Shown: piece by piece, positions 1-8,162 of the stretch
Numbering within the stretch: the first letter of the stretch is position 1
Layout: each line of letters starts with the position of its first letter
Virus record (IMG/VR): IMGVR_UViG_2693429713_000015
Origin: a virus
Taxonomy: Duplodnaviria > Heunggongvirae > Uroviricota > Caudoviricetes
Reading direction: 5' to 3' (one strand)
DNA: 34,819 nucleotides
Position numbers and translations under genes: made by a program
The notes under the pieces: generated by a model
Database searches by the model: none
What the model was told of the DNA's origin: nothing
Seen by the model: the letters and a program-made list of their open reading frames with translations, nothing else

Positions 1-646
<646 letters not shown>

Positions 647-649
647 AGC

Positions 650-1286
<637 letters not shown>

Positions 1287-1287
1287 T

Positions 1288-1344
<57 letters not shown>

Positions 1345-2185: not shown

Positions 2186-2392
2186 TCATCTCCTTTTTTT
2201 CAGTCTGTCGGCAACAATGTCGGTTGCAGCTGGCAGGGTGACTGGCCAGAACAACATGACGGCGGTCATGTACAGGATGTAATGCGCGGTGTCGTAGTGC
2301 CTGCCATAGCCCAGGGAACGATGAAGTCTTGCGCTGCATGATCCTGCGTACATATACCAGAAAAGAAAACAGACAATGGTTTCAGTAGTCAT
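2186..2392 (-). CDS. Small hydrophobic protein (68 aa), hypothetical
   Basis: Internal ATG at 2392 preceded by GGGGAGG 8 nt upstream; product MTTETIVCFLFWYMYAG...AVMLFWPVTLPAA is hydrophobic; stop abuts the GemA start. Confidence 0.4.
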   Translation of the reverse strand: MTTETIVCFLFWYMYAGSCSARLHRSLGYGRHYDTAHYILYMTAVMLFWPVTLPAATDIVADRLKKRR

Positions 2393-2612
2393 TCTGAATA
2401 CCTCCCCATTCGATATGAATATTACGGGCAGCAATGACAGGGTCGTTATTCCACCATGCACCTGACATGTATTTTTCAACCTGTTCGCGTCCGGCAATAA
2501 CACCAATTGTGATCCCCGGCCTGACGTTCTTAAAAAAGGCGCGGGCAAAAAGGTATCTGGCAGATATTCGGCAGGCTTTTAATTTCCGGCTTTTACCTGA
2601 TAGCGTAATCAT
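2382..2612 (-). CDS. Hypothetical protein (76 aa)
   Basis: ATG at 2612-2610 overlaps the upstream gene's stop (ATGA arrangement); fills the gap in a tightly coupled gene chain. Confidence 0.35.
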   Translation of the reverse strand: MITLSGKSRKLKACRISARYLFARAFFKNVRPGITIGVIAGREQVEKYMSGAWWNNDPVIAARNIHIEWGGIQNDY

Positions 2613-3292
2613 CTGGCCTCCAGTTTCTGTTGTTCCTGCCCACTGACCGGGCGGTGCAGTCTGACGTTCTGCCCTTCACGAAACCCCGCATAGCGCGAGG
2701 CGTCGCCATTGCGGCTTCTTCCCGGTTTACGCGCCCTGGTGGTTTGCGTCTGCGGGTATTTATGTTCCAGCCACTGCTGCATCAGTTCACGCTCATCATC
2801 GGTCAGGGCAAAGGACTGTATTTCACTGATAACGGCCAGCACCCAGCCTTCGGCAAACTGGTCTCCACGGCTGGTGCGGGTGGCGGTTTTTATTCTTTTG
2901 TTCTGTGCACTGATATACTGCTGACGCGCCTTTTTCAGCTGACGGGCCAGCACTTCCCAGGTGTATGCAGCCAGTGCCGCACGTTCCCGGTTGCCGTAGA
3001 ACCCCACAGACGGATGCGTGCCGGGGTGAATGATGGAGTTAACACCAAATACCTCGCGGATGATGTTCATCAGGCCCAGCATGTAGCGCGGTGGACGGAG
3101 ACTGCCTGTCGGCCAGTAGTGACTGATGGTTTCATCAATATCACTCATAGCAATGTCGGAATGTGTGATGCCGTGAACATCCATCAGTTTACGGGCTCGG
3201 CACAGTGCCAGAGCGGCCTCGTGCGGGTTGCCGGATGCGGCCAGCGCCAGCAACTTTTTCAGTTTCTCAATGTGTTTATTCTGGTCTGTCAT
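2609..3292 (-). CDS. DUF2786-like early protein
   Basis: Likely start is ATG at 3292 (MTDQNKHIEKLKKLLALAASGNPHEAALALCRARKLM...), overlapping the upstream stop by ATGA; N-terminal helix pair resembles the DUF2786 signature (from memory). Confidence 0.5.
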   Translation of the reverse strand: MTDQNKHIEKLKKLLALAASGNPHEAALALCRARKLMDVHGITHSDIAMSDIDETISHYWPTGSLRPPRYMLGLMNIIREVFGVNSIIHPGTHPSVGFYGNRERAALAAYTWEVLARQLKKARQQYISAQNKRIKTATRTSRGDQFAEGWVLAVISEIQSFALTDDERELMQQWLEHKYPQTQTTRARKPGRSRNGDASRYAGFREGQNVRLHRPVSGQEQQKLEAR

Positions 3293-3504
3293 TGTTCTGT
3301 ATCTCCGGTATTTTTCTGCCGTTTCCATGCCCGGACAGCGTCGGACAGCTCTTTCAGGCTGTATGCTGCTTTAAGCTTTTCCCATAACCACTGTGTTGTT
3401 ATGTGCATCAGCAGGGCAGCCAGGGCTGCCCCCGCACTGAGGCATGTCGCCAGGCCAGTAAGAATCAGTATCCATGCGGTGATTTCCCTGAGTATGTCAG
3501 CCAT
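3289..3504 (-). CDS. Small membrane protein (71 aa), hypothetical
   Basis: Single strong hydrophobic segment ITAWILILTGLATCLSAGAALAALLM. Confidence 0.45.
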   Translation of the reverse strand: MADILREITAWILILTGLATCLSAGAALAALLMHITTQWLWEKLKAAYSLKELSDAVRAWKRQKNTGDTEQ

Positions 3505-3518
3505 TGAATGCCTCCCGG

Positions 3519-3815
3519 TTACTCGTTCGTGTAAATCACGCCCAGTCGTGCAGCCAGACGTTCCAGTTTTTTCTGTTTGTGGAAGTCAATCAGCCGGTCC
3601 ATCCCCTGAAGGCGCAATTGCTCTGTCATGATTTCCACGTCTGCCAGCTCTGCCGCGAGGTCGCTTTCGCTGCCCTGTCCGTTCAGATTGCGGGCAGCAC
3701 TGGCCGCCAGTTCAGCGGCCTCTTCTGTCAGTTTCAGGGCCTGTGCGTCCGGCCCGAAACGCTGCAGGGCCAGACGGTAGAGGGCGGTGCGGGTGAGTAT
3801 GGTGTTCCGTGTCAT
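3519..3815 (-). CDS. MazG-like nucleotide pyrophosphohydrolase-fold protein (98 aa), tentative
   Basis: Contains KLTEEAAELAASA ... DLAAELADVEIMTEQL ... KQKKLERLAARLG, matching the EExxE / ExxD / KxxR arrangement of small MazG domains; eye-match only. Confidence 0.45.
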   Translation of the reverse strand: MTRNTILTRTALYRLALQRFGPDAQALKLTEEAAELAASAARNLNGQGSESDLAAELADVEIMTEQLRLQGMDRLIDFHKQKKLERLAARLGVIYTNE

Positions 3816-3824
3816 GCCGCGCCC

Positions 3825-4097
3825 TCAGTGCTTCCGGCTGACGGTGATGTGCAGGCCGCCTTCTGCAGTGGTTTCCATCCGGTACGGCACCTCATGCGCT
3901 GCCGTGTGGGTTAGTGTGTTCACCAGTACCTGCAGGGCAGCCGCCTTTCCGTTGGTCGCCACAATGGCCTGAGCGGTCATGCTGATTAGCGCCGTCAGGA
4001 CGTGCTTCACATCGGTGAGGTCGCGGCATTCACACTCGTTGACATAGTGTTCAACAAGGGTTCGGGTGCGCTGTCGTGCTTCCTGTGGGGTAATCAT
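3825..4097 (-). CDS. Hypothetical early protein (90 aa)
   Basis: ORF in the operon, overlapping the upstream gene by 4 nt; no recognisable motif. Confidence 0.45.
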   Translation of the reverse strand: MITPQEARQRTRTLVEHYVNECECRDLTDVKHVLTALISMTAQAIVATNGKAAALQVLVNTLTHTAAHEVPYRMETTAEGGLHITVSRKH

Positions 4098-4288
4098 TGC
4101 GAGTCCTCCCTGTCAGGGCGGGAGAATTCCATGACGGGCACGTCTGCCGAAAAATGCTGGCTGCAGTACGGGCAGACCAGGGTGACGCGTACCGCAGGGA
4201 TGTGGTATTTACCGGACATCACGGCGATGGCGCTGTGAAAACGCAGGGCTGTTATATCCCTCTCGCACTGAATACATTTAAATATCAT
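4094..4288 (-). CDS. Small Cys4 zinc-ribbon-like protein (64 aa)
   Basis: CxxC...CxxC (CIQCERD ... CPYCSQHF); GAGGAG RBS 9 nt upstream of ATG at 4288. Confidence 0.5.
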   Translation of the reverse strand: MIFKCIQCERDITALRFHSAIAVMSGKYHIPAVRVTLVCPYCSQHFSADVPVMEFSRPDREDSQ

Positions 4289-4385
4289 GATTTAATTCTC
4301 CTCTGTTTCCGGCGTGCAGAAGCCCGCGGCGCTGACGCCGGAATAAAAAAGAAAATGTTTTTATTAAATAATTAACGTGGTGTGT

Positions 4386-4916
4386 TTACTGCACATCCTG
4401 CTCAAAAGGAATTATTGAAAAATCCTCAATGTCGCTTTTAATGGAAATACCGGGAATATTTTTCACGGCCTCTTTTTCATTCAGGATAGCGTCTTTATTT
4501 ATTTCCTCTTTTACACGAATAAAGCGCTCAAGCCCCAGACGTCTCAGCAGTTCAATGACATTATCCGCCCCGCGAATGCTGACTGACGGCGGACGGTTTC
4601 GCCACTGCACCTCGCCGGTGGTGAGGTTAGCGAACTTCACCTTCCCGTTGCCGGTCAGTTCATCACGGTGCGCCTCACACCATGTCTGGATACCGGACTG
4701 CAGTTCGGCCATGCGTTTTTTCAGGCTCTCGGTGAGCGGGGCATAACGTGCAGTGATGTCGCCAATGGTGTCATTCATTTCTGTTTCAGCCCTGACCAGT
4801 TCACGTTGCGCGTCACCAAGCAGTCTGATTCCCTCAATGACCTCTTCGCGTGTCCCCGGCACCCAGAGTGCTGCTGCGGCTTTGATACGTTTTGCCCCTT
4901 TTGTACTTTTTGCCAT
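4386..4916 (-). CDS. gam: Gam-like host-nuclease inhibitor
   Basis: 176 aa; collinear with Mu Gam as recalled (AKRIKAAAALWVP...RLGLERFIRVKEEINKDAILNEK...IEDFSIIPFEQ). Confidence 0.9.
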   Translation of the reverse strand: MAKSTKGAKRIKAAAALWVPGTREEVIEGIRLLGDAQRELVRAETEMNDTIGDITARYAPLTESLKKRMAELQSGIQTWCEAHRDELTGNGKVKFANLTTGEVQWRNRPPSVSIRGADNVIELLRRLGLERFIRVKEEINKDAILNEKEAVKNIPGISIKSDIEDFSIIPFEQDVQ

Positions 4917-4943: not shown

Positions 4944-5213
4944 TTACCACAAAGATTCCGGCCACACGACGCGACAGCCGTGCAGTTCGAAAACGCCCTG
5001 ACGGAAATGTCCCCTGTGGTCATGACCGGTATACAGATAACAGGCCTTTCCCTGCTCAAGCATGCGCATGCAATGCGCACTCCGGGAAACGCGGATGACA
5101 GGTTTGTTACCCCTGATGGTGATGCTTTGTACATCCGTGTTCGTCGCCTTAAGCGCCATAATGGCTGACTGCACTTTGCTGATTTGCTGGTTGATACCTG
5201 TGGTGGATTTCAT
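4944..5213 (-). CDS. Hypothetical Cys/His-rich protein (89 aa) in the kil position between B and gam
   Basis: AAGGGG RBS; motif HCMRMLEQGKACYLYTGHDHRGH...HGC; function unknown. Confidence 0.45.
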   Translation of the reverse strand: MKSTTGINQQISKVQSAIMALKATNTDVQSITIRGNKPVIRVSRSAHCMRMLEQGKACYLYTGHDHRGHFRQGVFELHGCRVVWPESLW

Positions 5214-5215
5214 TA

Positions 5216-6382
5216 TTAAACCCCTTTGACAACGTCAGCGTTGACCTGTGGAACCCCGATTTCAGCGGCCAGATTCATGGCGGCTATTACCAGGTTACTG
5301 ACGGCCAGCGGATACAGCAGGCTGACCATATTTTTACGATGACTTCCCGGATTGCTCAGGCGGGCACGTATGGCATCCACTGCGCTGGCGTCCATAATGT
5401 CCGTCAGTTGTTTACCGGCCCGTTGCAGTTTGAACGTCAGAAACTCTTCAAGGTTATTGTCCAGAGGCAGAAGTTCGACCACCTCACAGCGCTGAACGAC
5501 TTCACGGACTTCCATATTGCGTTCAGACAGTTTTGTCGCCAGTTCCGGCTGGCCAATCAGCACGATGGACAGCAGTTTTTTGAAACCGGACTCCAGCTCA
5601 AAAAAGCGTTTGAGGTGTTTCAGTGTCGGAATGGGCAGACTGTGGGCCTCCTCAATCACCAGAACGTGGCTGAACCCCGCCTGGCTGCTGTCTTTCAGGA
5701 CGCGATGCAACTGGCGAAAGCGGGCGTCCTGACTGCGTCTGATGCTTTCCAGTGGTGCGATGGTACTGATAATGGCTTCGGCAATCGCTGCTGCCTTCAG
5801 GGTTTTCCCTTTCACATCGTTGTCTTCCATAGCGATGATGTATGGCTCGATAACAATTACCGGCGCATTCTCGCGGTTGATACGTTCAGTCAGGTCGCGG
5901 CGCAGCGTGGATTTACCCGCACCGGACTCACCGATGACGGCCATAAACCCACCATGACGGGCTGTCTGGTACAACGCCTCACGCACGTAGCGAATATCCG
6001 GGGTGGTGAACACATCATCAGAACCCTGCATGGCTTCGTCGGCGAACGGGTCACGGAAAAGACCAAACGCTTTTTTGGTTGCTGGAAATAACACCTGTTT
6101 TTTGAGTAACATATTCTCTTCCTCACTGAGGCTCGTTTTATCTGTGGTACCCGCTGTACGGGGCGTGGCCGCGCCCTGTACAGCATCAAAACTCTTCGTT
6201 GTATCAATCCCCTGACTTTCCAGCCAGGACGCAAGACGCCGGCGCACTTCTCCGGGGCTGGTGCGGGGCCACGCGTTATGATTCACAATCTGGGCCAGCG
6301 TGGCCTCAGAAACATCGACAGCTCTCGCCACCACCGCCTGTGGAATACGGGCCTCTTTCAGTTGCTGCTTCAGTACCAGCAT
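5216..6382 (-). CDS. DNA transposition ATPase B (MuB-like, AAA+)
   Basis: Walker A GESGAGKST; N-terminal HTH-like segment; immediately downstream of the transposase; preferred start is ATG at 6382 with GAGGAGGG RBS (the ORF track's longer form starts at a GTG). Confidence 0.85.
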   Translation of the reverse strand: MLVLKQQLKEARIPQAVVARAVDVSEATLAQIVNHNAWPRTSPGEVRRRLASWLESQGIDTTKSFDAVQGAATPRTAGTTDKTSLSEEENMLLKKQVLFPATKKAFGLFRDPFADEAMQGSDDVFTTPDIRYVREALYQTARHGGFMAVIGESGAGKSTLRRDLTERINRENAPVIVIEPYIIAMEDNDVKGKTLKAAAIAEAIISTIAPLESIRRSQDARFRQLHRVLKDSSQAGFSHVLVIEEAHSLPIPTLKHLKRFFELESGFKKLLSIVLIGQPELATKLSERNMEVREVVQRCEVVELLPLDNNLEEFLTFKLQRAGKQLTDIMDASAVDAIRARLSNPGSHRKNMVSLLYPLAVSNLVIAAMNLAAEIGVPQVNADVVKGV

Positions 6383-6392
6383 GTTTCCCTCC

Positions 6393-8162
6393 TCAGTTGC
6401 CGTTAACAATGCTGATAACACTGCTGCGGGCCGGTGTGGTCAGCGTGGCCATGACTTCATCCAGTGCGGCTTCCGGTACGCCGTCCGGGTACTGTGCCGT
6501 TAACTGGCGGTAATGTTCCGGCGTCCAGGTAAGGCCGTCGGCGCTGAACTTATCGCGCAGGGCTTTCGCGGCCTCCACATGAGTCATGGGACGTTGTTCA
6601 GTGCGCGGCCCGCGTACGTCAGAGGCCTGACCACGCTTCGGCATATAGGCCGGAAGTGTGGTGTCGTCGATATGTTTATACGGGTCAAGCCGCCCGCCGA
6701 ACGGCAGCGCCTTCGCCTTGCGTGCGGCGGCTGCATCTGCGGCGTTGTCTGTACCGGTAACCAGCGCTTCGGTTTCTTTTGCCGCCATCTGTGCCGGGGT
6801 TTCCGGCAGGGCTTTGTAACTTTCGCCAAATACCGCCGCGCCTTCAGCAAAGCCAAACTCGTTCTTTCTGACCTCTTCGACCAGGAAGAACGTCTCGTGG
6901 CCGTCCTCACCGGTCAGAACCACCTGTGCCACATCGCTGCGCCATGGGTTACGGGTAATCATCAGTTTTTCACCAACCAGTACGCCCGGTACCGTTGATA
7001 CGTCAAATTCAGTGCCCCGGAACGAGACACGAAGTTTTGGCGTGACTTTGCGGAGTTCTGGTGCCGCCACAGCCAGTTCACGACATACCTCAACGGAAGG
7101 CGCTTTTTTCAGCTGCTCAGCAGTAATCTTCAGCCAGATATCCGTGCGGGTTTTACCGTGGCGGCTGTGAACAGCCGTGGCGTTAAAGTGGCTGCGCCAT
7201 TTCGCGGCCAGCGCGTTGAGTTCTTCCAGACTGTGAACCGGCCGGAACTTCAGACCCGGCTCCAGCTTGCGTTCGATAATGTCACGCGCCTTTTCCACCT
7301 GTCCGGTGGCGCGGGCGTTATGCGGCTTGTGCGCTATCAGGTCGATGCCCAGTGAGCGGCACATGTTTTTCGTCATACCCGCGGTGTTTGCCGAGCCGGG
7401 GTCGAGATAGAGTATTTTCGGCACGCCGTGCAGCACGTCTGCGCCGCCACGCTCCTGCATGGCGTTGATAAGCACAGAACACAGGTTCTCACCTGATTCC
7501 GCGCCCGTCACATACTCAACGTAAATCCAGCCGCTGGCATGGTCGGTAATCTCGTAACTCCACACGCGGTCACTGGCGATACGGGCAAGGTTAGCGGGCT
7601 TGTTCTTGTAGAACTTCGCGCTGTCCATCACCTGCAGCCCTTTATGTCCATTGCTCAGGTAGTAAAGCGTGCAGAGTGAGGCGTCAATCTGCCAGACATG
7701 ATTGGGATGCAGACTGGCCACTTCGGTATGTGGTGCAGGGGCATCCAGTTGTTCCGGGTGCAGGCCATAGTTACGCAGAGCACGGCTGATGGCATCTTCA
7801 GACAACGGGAAAAACTCACTGGTGGTTTCATCTGTTCTGCCTGCGGTGATAAAGCCGTTAGCCCGCAGGGTTTCCACTGCATCTGCGATGGAATAGAGAC
7901 GCTTACCGTTCTTGCGGGTGGCCTCACGCAGTGTGGCAGATATCAGCGCGGCTTCGTCGCGGGTCAGGGCGCTGCGCCCGGCATCGGCGCGTTTTTTGCG
8001 TTTATCAGTCACAGATACCTCCTTCAGCCTGCGCAGCAGAGTGGCGCGGGACATGCCAAGTTCAGCACAGGCAGCGTCGTATATTGCACCGCGTTTACCA
8101 TGCCCCGCGTCACGTGCCGCGCGGGCTGTTTCAACCAGTTTTTCAGTCAGTGCCGGGGTCAT
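6393..8162 (-). CDS. Mu-type DDE transposase A
   Basis: 589 aa; N-terminal HTH region followed by an integrase-core-like central domain; position between ner-like genes and B. Confidence 0.9.
   Translation of the reverse strand: MTPALTEKLVETARAARDAGHGKRGAIYDAACAELGMSRATLLRRLKEVSVTDKRKKRADAGRSALTRDEAALISATLREATRKNGKRLYSIADAVETLRANGFITAGRTDETTSEFFPLSEDAISRALRNYGLHPEQLDAPAPHTEVASLHPNHVWQIDASLCTLYYLSNGHKGLQVMDSAKFYKNKPANLARIASDRVWSYEITDHASGWIYVEYVTGAESGENLCSVLINAMQERGGADVLHGVPKILYLDPGSANTAGMTKNMCRSLGIDLIAHKPHNARATGQVEKARDIIERKLEPGLKFRPVHSLEELNALAAKWRSHFNATAVHSRHGKTRTDIWLKITAEQLKKAPSVEVCRELAVAAPELRKVTPKLRVSFRGTEFDVSTVPGVLVGEKLMITRNPWRSDVAQVVLTGEDGHETFFLVEEVRKNEFGFAEGAAVFGESYKALPETPAQMAAKETEALVTGTDNAADAAAARKAKALPFGGRLDPYKHIDDTTLPAYMPKRGQASDVRGPRTEQRPMTHVEAAKALRDKFSADGLTWTPEHYRQLTAQYPDGVPEAALDEVMATLTTPARSSVISIVNGN

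What the first reader, a model, noticed from the sequence alone, without database searches (positions are those of the whole stretch)
3289..4288. Cluster of four small translationally coupled early proteins between gam and the DUF2786 gene, including a MazG-like protein and a Cys4 zinc ribbon
This position corresponds to the semi-essential early region of Mu-type phages, where host-takeover and anti-defence functions are usually found. The 98-aa protein carries an EExxE...ExxD...KxxR arrangement consistent with a MazG-type NTP pyrophosphohydrolase; the 64-aa protein has two CxxC pairs; the 71-aa protein is a single-pass membrane protein. None has an assigned function.
Basis: partly seen in the sequence, partly recalled or inferred. 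Interest (0 to 1): 0.5.

Follow-up and report, generated by a model that had tools for sequence, protein, structure and literature searches.

The report
Small early genes of Mu-like prophage
Four real but small genes sit in the early operon of a common E. coli Mu-like prophage; one is a divergent MazG-type nucleotide pyrophosphatase that databases already label as such, one is a zinc-ribbon protein that tends to travel with it, and two remain unexplained, so the finding is mostly ordinary.

Summary
Window 3289-4288 carries four minus-strand genes between gam and the DUF2786/DUF7168 gene: Zn64, p90, MazG98 and TM71. RefSeq calls the same four, and all are under purifying selection (dN/dS 0.08-0.39).

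- **Zn64:** a generic zinc ribbon with four invariant Cys. In sister prophages its stop codon overlaps the MazG start, in some it is fused in frame, and unrelated Cys-pair modules are fused to many distant family members. This suggests a partnership.
- **p90:** an Enterobacterales-restricted, mosaic, fast-evolving protein of three helices plus a beta-hairpin, with no informative relative.
- **TM71:** a single-pass membrane protein found only in part of the E. coli lineage.

The four genes are not a discrete unit. Tight packing continues through to mor. Any host-takeover or anti-defence role is untested.

The parts
4094..4288 (-). Zn64: 64-aa Cys4 zinc-ribbon protein (phrog_3401). It is the first gene after the gam spacer, and its stop overlaps the p90 start (ATGA).
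   Evidence: ORF and RefSeq CDS WP_001295928.1. phrog_3401 matched at 1.6e-40. C5, C8, C39 and C42 are invariant in homologues down to 27-30% identity. dN/dS is 0.076. Pfam zinc-ribbon matches are all below threshold.
3825..4097 (-). p90: 90-aa protein of unknown function (phrog_3691). The model shows three helices plus a C-terminal beta-hairpin. C22, C24 and (in full-length members) H90 are invariant. Alleles are mosaic and fast-evolving.
3519..3815 (-). MazG98: 98-aa single-domain all-alpha NTP pyrophosphohydrolase-like protein (MazG/HisE superfamily) with E31 E32 E35 / E56 D59 / K83 R86 and the subfamily signature ADVEIMxEQ.
3289..3504 (-). TM71: 71-aa single-pass membrane protein (phrog_3958). 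The hydrophobic segment covers roughly residues 9-33, and the conserved basic amphipathic C-terminal tail is probably cytoplasmic. Its stop overlaps the start of the DUF2786/DUF7168 gene (ATGA at 3289-3292).
   Evidence: ORF and CDS WP_000763553.1. phrog_3958 matched at 1.7e-41. It is present in only part of the E. coli lineage. In the divergent alleles the TM part varies and the C-terminal 35 aa are kept. dN/dS is 0.39.
4295..4356 (-). RNA hairpin in the 97-nt gam-Zn64 spacer. The extended stem pairs a U-run with the Zn64 Shine-Dalgarno sequence (GAGGAG). It is a possible translational or RNA-stability element at the head of the tightly packed gene chain.
   Evidence: MFE is -31.1 kcal/mol with z -3.5, and 0 of 200 shuffles fold as well. 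It is retained in a 78%-gam lineage with one C-G to U-A double change. It does not match the terminator pattern on either strand. Function is not tested.
4386..4916 (-). gam (host-nuclease inhibitor), the upstream flank. In some relatives it is followed directly by the MazG-like gene.
   Evidence: Pfam Phage_Mu_Gam matched at 1.9e-40. In L068 gam is followed directly by the MazG-like gene and then DUF2786.
2609..3292 (-). DUF2786/DUF7168 gene, the downstream flank. It is the next member of the overlapping gene chain that runs on through p76, p68 and gemA to mor.
   Evidence: Pfam DUF7168 matched at 1.2e-25 and DUF2786 at 6e-10. The RefSeq start is at M13, giving the ATGA overlap with TM71.

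Best explanation
The region is part of the accessory ('semi-essential') stretch of the early operon of a Mu-like transposable prophage of E. coli. It is transcribed with A, B and gam after infection or induction.

- **MazG98** is a small, homo-oligomeric, Mg2+-dependent all-alpha NTP pyrophosphohydrolase. Two helices carry the acidic cluster E31/E32/E35 and E56/D59 that holds the metal ions. It cleaves the alpha-beta phosphoanhydride bond of a nucleoside triphosphate-type substrate to give NMP and PPi. By analogy with characterised small MazG enzymes, the most likely substrates are (d)NTPs, canonical or aberrant. The enzyme would then condition the nucleotide pool during replicative transposition.
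- **Zn64** is a zinc-ribbon partner of the enzyme, acting as adaptor or regulator. It is made in fixed proportion by coupled translation.
- **p90** (cytoplasmic, fast-evolving, mosaic) and **TM71** (membrane-anchored with a conserved cytoplasmic tail) are independent, lineage-specific cargo genes inserted beside this pair.

Shown here: gene reality, purifying selection, motif conservation, predicted fold, gene order and its variation. Inferred: catalysis, oligomeric state, substrate, the Zn64-MazG98 interaction, and every biological role.
For: **Genes are real**
- ORFs are and the matching RefSeq CDSs.
- dN/dS is below 0.4 for all four.
- The 1.2-kb block is present in 621 of 5,426 complete E. 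coli genomes.

**Early-operon context**
- The transposase (DDE-type, RefSeq annotation), the B-like ExeA/AAA protein, and Gam, GemA and Mor (Pfam) lie on the same strand.
- No promoter- or terminator-like sites occur inside the cluster beyond chance.

**MazG98**
- phrog_2245 matched at 2.8e-34. PGAP and JGI name it an NTP pyrophosphatase.
- A profile search finds 10,697 representatives. E31 and D59 are invariant, and E32, E35, E56, K83 and R86 are at least 90% conserved.
- 10 of 80 relatives reach Pfam MazG, MazG-like or PRA-PH at E<1e-3.
- The family profile hits Bacillus MazG 5ie9 (E 0.006), iMazG and YpjD with the two motifs in register.
- The AF2 model has pLDDT 81.
- The Foldseek top three are iMazG, DCTPP1 and MazG.

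**Zn64 link**
- In sister prophages the Zn-ribbon stop overlaps the MazG start (ATGA), with no p90 between them.
- L045, P0026 and P0036 are in-frame fusions.
- A 27-33% identical Zn ribbon still sits directly upstream of the MazG-like gene in L070, L071, L104 and L108.
- 13 of 50 long family representatives carry unrelated CxxC...CxxC modules at either end.
- Cys4 ORFs are enriched 2.4-fold next to distant family members (p 0.008).

**p90 and TM71 are optional**.

**Substrate prior:** cyanophage MazG prefers dGTP and dCTP and does not cleave ppGpp (PMC6850273, listed).
Against: - The protein itself does not reach any Pfam or NCBIfam threshold (PRA-PH 14.5 bits against 21.3).
- hhalign against a single HisE sequence gives E 0.034 and low probability.
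- No biochemical data exist for any member of this subfamily that I could find.
- Substrates in this superfamily cannot be read from sequence. Atd1 acts on ppGpp, whereas cyanophage MazG does not.
- The Zn-ribbon association is modest outside Enterobacterales: 14 of 158 neighbour positions.
- Relatives L068, L073 and L075 have MazG without any Zn ribbon.
- The fused ORFs differ from the unfused ones by one A in an A-run and could be sequencing or slippage variants.
Confidence: 0.5

Rival explanations
1. Counter-defence enzyme. MazG98, with Zn64, destroys a nucleotide that the host uses against the phage. The target could be the alarmone (p)ppGpp, as for Atd1, or defence-made nucleotides such as chain-terminating or deaminated NTPs. 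p90 and TM71 would be further anti-defence or superinfection-exclusion factors.
For: - The phage MazG-like Atd1 hydrolyses ppGpp and protects against TIR-STING and retron-TIR toxicity (bioRxiv 10.1101/2022.06.09.495361).
- The genes sit in the accessory early region next to gam, a known host-nuclease inhibitor.
- p90 is mosaic and diverges far faster than its neighbours, as arms-race genes do.
- In 10 of 79 distant loci the MazG-like gene is followed by an ORF that, judged by eye from its sequence motifs, looks like a ParB/DNA-methyltransferase, a typical anti-restriction function.
Against: - There is no direct evidence.
- tblastn of MazG98 against 50,697 phage records finds only four close relatives, so it is not a close homologue of any characterised phage MazG.
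- p90 has dN/dS 0.29, which is purifying rather than positive selection overall.
- Most biochemically characterised small MazG proteins act on dNTPs (my knowledge, plus PMC6850273).
Confidence: 0.2
2. The four genes are unrelated, dispensable 'filler' ORFs of the early operon with no joint function. MazG98 is a relic or moonlighting helical protein without catalytic activity.
For: - The content of the region varies between related prophages: TM71, p90 and even Zn64 can be missing.
- Fold-match statistics are only moderate.
- No curated family threshold is reached.
Against: - All four are under purifying selection.
- The metal-binding acidic residues of MazG98 are invariant or nearly so across thousands of relatives. 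That is not expected of an inactive relic.
- Zn64-MazG adjacency and coupling persist at 27-33% Zn-ribbon identity.
Confidence: 0.1
3. Zn64 plus MazG98 act on nucleic acid or on a polymerase rather than on the free nucleotide pool. The zinc ribbon would tether the pyrophosphohydrolase to DNA or RNA ends, to RNA polymerase or to the transpososome. Examples are removal of 5' triphosphates or local nucleotide control.
For: - Zinc-ribbon modules of unrelated sequence are fused to the MazG-like domain at either terminus.
- Zinc ribbons commonly mediate binding to nucleic acids or polymerases (general knowledge).
- The gene neighbours gam, which binds DNA ends.
Against: - This is purely inferential.
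- No family member hits any nucleic-acid-binding domain.
- Zn64 matches only generic zinc-ribbon profiles, all below threshold.
Confidence: 0.1

Closest known systems
iMazG, the integron-cassette MazG of Vibrio DAT722 (PDB 2q5z/2q73), and other single-domain ~100-aa MazG proteins (Sulfolobus SSO3215 1vmg, Bacillus MazG 5ie9, B. subtilis YpjD 2gta)
   Same: - Single-domain proteins of about 95-115 aa and all-alpha.
- The EExxE...ExxD acidic motifs lie on two helices.
- iMazG is carried on a mobile element.
   Different: - Only 21-25% identity over structural alignments.
- MazG98 falls below Pfam MazG and PRA-PH thresholds.
- It has its own signature, ADVEIMxEQ, with extra conserved E61, E65 and Q66.
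- No biochemistry or experimental structure exists for this subfamily.
HisE / phosphoribosyl-ATP pyrophosphohydrolase (PF01503; M. tuberculosis 1y6x/3c90)
   Same: - Same superfamily and similar size.
- It is the best, though sub-threshold, Pfam and NCBIfam match.
- The motif register agrees in hhalign.
   Different: - HisE is a histidine-biosynthesis enzyme in his operons.
- MazG98 is a phage early gene with no his context.
- hhalign probability is low.
Atd1, the MazG-like anti-TIR-defence protein of Pectobacterium phage PcCB7V
   Same: It is a phage-encoded MazG-type catalytic domain in an accessory region. It sets a precedent that such enzymes can blunt abortive infection by hydrolysing ppGpp.
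   Different: - No detectable close similarity: tblastn of MazG98 finds only four phage records, all Escherichia or Klebsiella Mu-like phages.
- The substrate of MazG98 is unknown.
- No Zn-ribbon partner is described for Atd1.
Cyanophage MazG (S-PM2 type)
   Same: It is a phage-borne MazG pyrophosphohydrolase long assumed to manipulate host physiology.
   Different: It was shown to prefer dGTP and dCTP and not to hydrolyse ppGpp (PMC6850273). It is larger and meets the Pfam MazG model. It occurs in lytic T4-like phages rather than transposable prophages.
Semi-essential early region of phage Mu (kil, gam, sot, arm, cim, lig, gemA, mor)
   Same: The operon position is the same, between B/gam and gemA/mor. 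The genes are small, tightly packed, accessory and variable.
   Different: None of the four proteins was matched to a named Mu function in Pfam, PHROGs or NCBIfam. Their homologues occur in a FluMu/PhiKM-like Enterobacterales lineage.

Membership tests
All-alpha NTP pyrophosphohydrolase superfamily (MazG / HisE / dimeric dUTPase) | Acidic metal-binding signature EExxE, then 12-28 residues, then ExxD, on two helices | tested here: met
   The motif is E31-E32-A-A-E35, then 20 residues, then E56-L-A-D59. In the 80-sequence alignment E31 and D59 are invariant, and E32, E35 and E56 are at least 90% conserved. The motifs align in register with Bacillus MazG 5ie9 and HisE. The definition of the signature is from my knowledge of the family.
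All-alpha NTP pyrophosphohydrolase superfamily (MazG / HisE / dimeric dUTPase) | All-alpha helical-bundle fold resembling solved members | tested here: met
All-alpha NTP pyrophosphohydrolase superfamily (MazG / HisE / dimeric dUTPase) | Curated profile membership (Pfam MazG PF03819, MazG-like PF12643, PRA-PH PF01503; NCBIfam) | tested here: not met
   The best match is PRA-PH at 14.5 bits against a cut-off of 21.3, and TIGR03188 at 14.3 against 42.7. Indirect support exists: 10 of 80 family members hit these models at E<1e-3, and the protein matches phrog_2245 'NTP pyrophosphohydrolase' at 2.8e-34.
All-alpha NTP pyrophosphohydrolase superfamily (MazG / HisE / dimeric dUTPase) | Mg2+-dependent hydrolysis of an NTP to NMP + PPi; homodimer or tetramer forming the active sites | not testable with these tools
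   This needs enzyme assays and a structure, or at least a multimer prediction. The tools predict single chains only.
Zinc ribbon (Cys4) | Two CxxC knuckles separated by a beta-rich spacer, conserved among homologues | tested here: met
   C5xxC8 and C39xxC42 are invariant in eight homologues down to 27% identity, and CP(H/Y)C is kept.
Zinc ribbon (Cys4) | Membership of a specific curated zinc-ribbon family | tested here: not met
   Only sub-threshold generic hits were found (Sgf11, Zn_ribbon_4, YnfU, Zn_ribbon_Brz, HypA).
Atd1-type anti-defence MazG | ppGpp hydrolysis and protection from TIR-effector toxicity | not testable with these tools
   This is an experimental property. Sequence relatedness to Atd1 was not compared directly. 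tblastn against phage records gave only four close relatives.
Mu-type semi-essential early region | Small accessory genes on the early transcript, downstream of A/B and gam and upstream of gemA/mor | tested here: met
   Pfam identifies Gam, GemA and Mor, and RefSeq annotates the A-like DDE transposase and the B-like ExeA protein. The prophage sits at different host sites in different genomes. Expression timing was not tested.
Translationally coupled gene set | Overlapping stop and start codons between consecutive genes | tested here: inconclusive
   ATGA overlaps occur at the Zn64/p90 and TM71/DUF2786 junctions. The other two junctions are spacers of 9 and 14 nt with their own Shine-Dalgarno sequences. 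Coupling itself would need reporter assays.

The most novel reading that the evidence does not exclude
Zn64 and MazG98 form a conserved two-part enzyme: a zinc-ribbon-guided NTP pyrophosphohydrolase. It would represent a very large phage subfamily (more than 10,000 cluster representatives, signature ADVEIMxEQ) that no curated Pfam or NCBIfam model covers at threshold. Its role would be to destroy a host immune or stress nucleotide, such as (p)ppGpp or defence-made NTP analogues. The mosaic, fast-evolving p90 inserted between the two genes would be a separate inhibitor of a variable host target.
Probability: 0.15. Interest if true: 0.6.

Novelty: new member of a known kind. Interest (0 to 1): 0.3.

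Why it matters
This prophage is in about one in nine complete E. coli genomes, many of them clinical isolates. Its early accessory genes are therefore expressed in many strains on induction.

The MazG-like gene belongs to a very large, mostly phage-borne subfamily that no curated model reaches at threshold. It has no biochemistry, so one enzymological study would annotate thousands of genes.

If the zinc-ribbon partnership or an anti-defence role were confirmed, it would add a type of phage nucleotide-manipulating module. As it stands, the finding mainly confirms existing automated annotation.

Tried and rejected
- **Direct profile scans.** Pfam, NCBIfam and PADLOC scans of all four proteins gave nothing above threshold.
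- **PDB sequence searches.** Searches with MazG98 alone and with the shallow alignment A1 gave nothing meaningful.
- **hhalign of the family profile against HisE.** The result was E 0.034 at low probability, with the motifs in register, so it is too weak to count for much.
- **Zn64.** Profile searches against PDB and Pfam gave generic zinc-ribbon noise only.
- **Zn-ribbon::MazG fusion as a Rosetta stone.** The fused ORFs differ from the common overlapping arrangement by one A in an A-run. I therefore down-weighted them.
- **Programmed -1 frameshift at A_AAA_AAA making the fusion.** The slippery run is not conserved (L072 and L082 have AAACAATGA), so I rejected it as a general feature.
- **Intrinsic terminators or promoters inside the cluster.** None beyond chance.
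- **Gene-neighbourhood survey of 79 distant family members.** Neighbours are heterogeneous. The only recurrent ones, judged by eye from sequence motifs, were a ParB/methyltransferase-like ORF (10 loci) and a sigma/ArpU-like regulator (7 loci). This does not decide the function.
- **Search for isolated phages.** Only four records were found.
Full report
**1. What is there**

The window is a Mu-like transposable prophage of E. coli with a little host DNA at its left end. The early operon lies on the minus strand, in this order (ORFs; identities from Pfam and RefSeq):
- A-like DDE transposase, 6393-8162 (RefSeq name)
- B-like AAA/ExeA protein, 5216-6421 (RefSeq name)
- an HI_1482-family protein, 4944-5213 (RefSeq name)
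- gam, 4386-4916 (Pfam)
- four small ORFs
- the DUF2786/DUF7168 gene, 2609-3292 (Pfam)
- two more small ORFs, 2382-2612 and 2186-2392
- gemA, 1735-2184 (Pfam)
- mor, 1374-1763 (Pfam)

The four ORFs fill 3289-4288 exactly:
- Zn64, 4094-4288
- p90, 3825-4097
- MazG98, 3519-3815
- TM71, 3289-3504

RefSeq annotates the same four CDSs. The 1.2-kb block is found at 90% identity or more in 621 of 5,426 complete E. coli genomes, always on the chromosome. It is also 98.5% identical in the isolated phage PhiKM. The mor end abuts different host genes in different genomes, as expected for a transposing phage.

**2. Are the ORFs real genes?**

I extracted homologues from 80 IMG/VR contigs and computed Nei-Gojobori dN/dS.

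| Gene | dN/dS |
|---|---|
| Zn64 | 0.076 |
| MazG98 | 0.13 |
| p90 | 0.29 |
| TM71 | 0.39 |
| gam (comparison) | 0.04 |
| gemA (comparison) | 0.23 |

All four are therefore protein-coding genes under purifying selection. p90 and TM71 evolve fastest. Each has its own PHROG family with a full-length match.

**3. Packing**

Read from the sequence:
- Zn64/p90 overlap as ATGA (4094-4097).
- p90/MazG98 are 9 nt apart, and a GAGGG Shine-Dalgarno sequence overlaps the p90 stop.
- MazG98/TM71 are 14 nt apart, with GGGAGG.
- TM71/DUF2786 overlap as ATGA (3289-3292) at the RefSeq start.

Tight packing continues through to mor. The 'cluster of four' is therefore a stretch of a nine-gene chain, not a unit of its own. 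The only real gap is the 97-nt gam-Zn64 spacer. Its RNA folds into a stable hairpin whose extended stem covers the Zn64 ribosome-binding site (z -3.5). The hairpin is kept, with one compensatory pair, in a diverged lineage. No promoter- or terminator-like sites exceed chance.

**4. The 98-aa protein**

Direct Pfam and NCBIfam scans give only sub-threshold PRA-PH/HisE hits. It does match phrog_2245 'nucleoside triphosphate pyrophosphohydrolase' at 2.8e-34. Recent PGAP records and a JGI record already name it an NTP pyrophosphohydrolase or pyrophosphatase.

An exhaustive profile search finds 10,697 cluster representatives at E<=1e-3, and 2,056 at <=1e-10. Most are proteins of 90-110 aa. In an alignment of 80 of them:
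- E31, D59, Q66 and L87 are invariant.
- E32, E35, E56, K83 and R86 are at least 90% conserved.

There is also a subfamily signature, ADVEIMxEQ.

Further evidence for superfamily membership:
- Ten of the 80 relatives reach Pfam MazG, MazG-like or PRA-PH at E<1e-3.
- The family profile hits Bacillus MazG 5ie9 (E 0.006), iMazG, YpjD and SSO3215 in PDB, with the motifs in register.
- An AF2 model (pLDDT 81, all-helical) gives iMazG, DCTPP1 and Bacillus MazG as the Foldseek top three, at weak E-values.

Taken together, superfamily membership is well supported, at about 0.8, although no single statistic is strong.

Function within the superfamily cannot be read from sequence. Atd1 of a Pectobacterium phage hydrolyses ppGpp. 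Cyanophage MazG hydrolyses dGTP and dCTP but not ppGpp (PMC6850273). Only four isolated phages carry a detectable relative.

**5. The zinc ribbon and its link to MazG98**

Zn64 has C5xxC8 and C39xxC42. All four Cys are invariant down to 27% identity. Only generic, sub-threshold zinc-ribbon matches appear.

Comparative gene order is informative:
- MazG98 is the most widely kept of the four genes.
- In a sister lineage from other Enterobacterales, the Zn-ribbon gene lies immediately upstream. Its stop codon overlaps the MazG start, and p90 is absent.
- In L045, P0026 and P0036, one extra A in the junction A-run fuses the two genes in frame.
- Zn-ribbon homologues of 27-33% identity still precede the MazG-like gene in L070, L071, L104 and L108.
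- Among the 50 family representatives of at least 130 aa, 13 carry unrelated CxxC...CxxC modules N- or C-terminal to the MazG-like domain.
- Next to 79 distant phage relatives, Cys4 ORFs occupy 14 of 158 adjacent positions against 35 of 906 background ORFs, an odds ratio of 2.4 at p 0.008.
- L068, L073 and L075 have gam followed directly by the MazG-like gene, with no zinc ribbon.

I conclude that a Zn-ribbon/MazG partnership is likely but not obligatory.

**6. p90 and TM71**

p90 occurs only in Enterobacterales, Morganella and Shewanella prophages and has no name anywhere.
- Its alleles are mosaic. Some E. coli alleles carry the N-terminal 40 residues of the 44%-identical Citrobacter/Klebsiella type joined to the E. 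coli C-terminal half.
- Its identity falls to 74-80% where neighbours stay at 95% or more.
- C22 and C24 are invariant, and the terminal His in all full-length members.
- The AF2 model (pLDDT 74.5) shows three helices and a beta-hairpin.

TM71 has one hydrophobic segment. It is missing from many otherwise near-identical prophages. In its divergent alleles the membrane segment changes and the basic C-terminal 35 residues are kept. This points to a cytoplasmic functional tail. Neither protein can be assigned a function from these data.

**7. Verdict**

The MazG call is already present in PHROGs and in current RefSeq annotation.

This analysis adds five things:
- evidence that all four are genuine genes;
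- the finding that MazG98 belongs to a very large phage subfamily that curated models do not reach at threshold;
- the recurrent zinc-ribbon association;
- the optional, mosaic nature of p90 and TM71;
- the spacer hairpin.

The host-takeover or anti-defence interpretation stays a reasonable guess with precedent (Atd1) but no evidence here. My best estimate is an early-expressed (d)NTP pyrophosphohydrolase with a zinc-ribbon partner, flanked by two unrelated cargo genes. Interest is modest.

Noticed in passing
window 4295-4356 (minus-strand RNA), in the gam-Zn64 spacer 4289-4385: A stable hairpin: a U-run, then a GC stem (CCGGCGU...ACGCCGG), then AAACAGAGGAG. Its extended stem sequesters the Zn64 Shine-Dalgarno sequence (MFE -31.1 kcal/mol, z -3.5). 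It is kept in a lineage with 78%-identical gam, with a C-G to U-A double change. It is not a classical terminator on either strand.
   Followed up: partly
L044, L047, L058 (about 3975-3990) compared with L045; proteins P0026 and P0036: In sister prophages the Zn-ribbon stop overlaps the MazG start inside an A-run (GCA AAA AAA TGA). One extra A gives an in-frame Zn-ribbon::MazG fusion ORF. A_AAA_AAA is also a -1 slippery heptamer whose -1 frame is the MazG frame. The run is not conserved, since L072 and L082 read AAACAATGA.
   Followed up: partly
window 3825-4097 (p90) and its homologues in L003, L015, L041, L054: p90 alleles are recombinant mosaics of two N-terminal and two C-terminal types. 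They diverge to 74-80% aa identity inside prophages whose neighbouring genes are at least 95% identical.
   Followed up: partly
L002 (phage PhiKM, PQ738613) locus 4455-4676, equivalent to window ~4154-4375 on the + strand: The GenBank record of PhiKM omits the Zn64 gene and annotates an antisense ORF in its place. RefSeq E. coli records annotate Zn64.
   Followed up: no
window 1-1300 compared with L001 1-1431: The mor end of the prophage abuts an ORF (1-588) and a truncated ORF (650-1012) that I recognise from memory as cbrC and a yieK/NagB-like gene; I did not test this. In NZ_CP135709 the same end abuts araH. Up to three copies occur per genome. This fits random transposition.
   Followed up: no
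L044-L082 lineage, e.g. L045 3110-3721: In many related prophages gam is replaced at the same position by an unrelated 203-aa protein (MSEVNKENYMKDRKGRLVPVDQ...). I did not identify it.
   Followed up: no
P0012, P0030, P0031; L042, L043, L074, L077 (MazG-like ORF of 169-206 aa): Some MazG-like alleles carry a C-terminal extension of about 70 aa (...LPxRELLEDWCGAVP...FIGA...) with no known family. Others (P0091, P0096) are tandem duplications of the domain. That probably explains why phrog_2245 is 218 positions long.
   Followed up: no
window 2186-2392 and 2382-2612 (minus strand): Two further small overlapping ORFs (68 and 76 aa) lie between the DUF2786 gene and gemA and have no family assignment. 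The 68-aa protein is hydrophobic (KD maximum 1.52). In some relatives its match falls to about 40% identity while neighbours stay above 95%.
   Followed up: no
L083-L162 (distant MazG-like loci), e.g. L162 2778-4238: In 10 of 79 distant phage loci the MazG-like gene is followed directly by a ~486-aa ORF that looks, from its sequence motifs, like a ParB-N/DNA-methyltransferase. In 7 loci a sigma/ArpU-like regulator lies nearby. I did not scan either ORF against any family library.
   Followed up: partly
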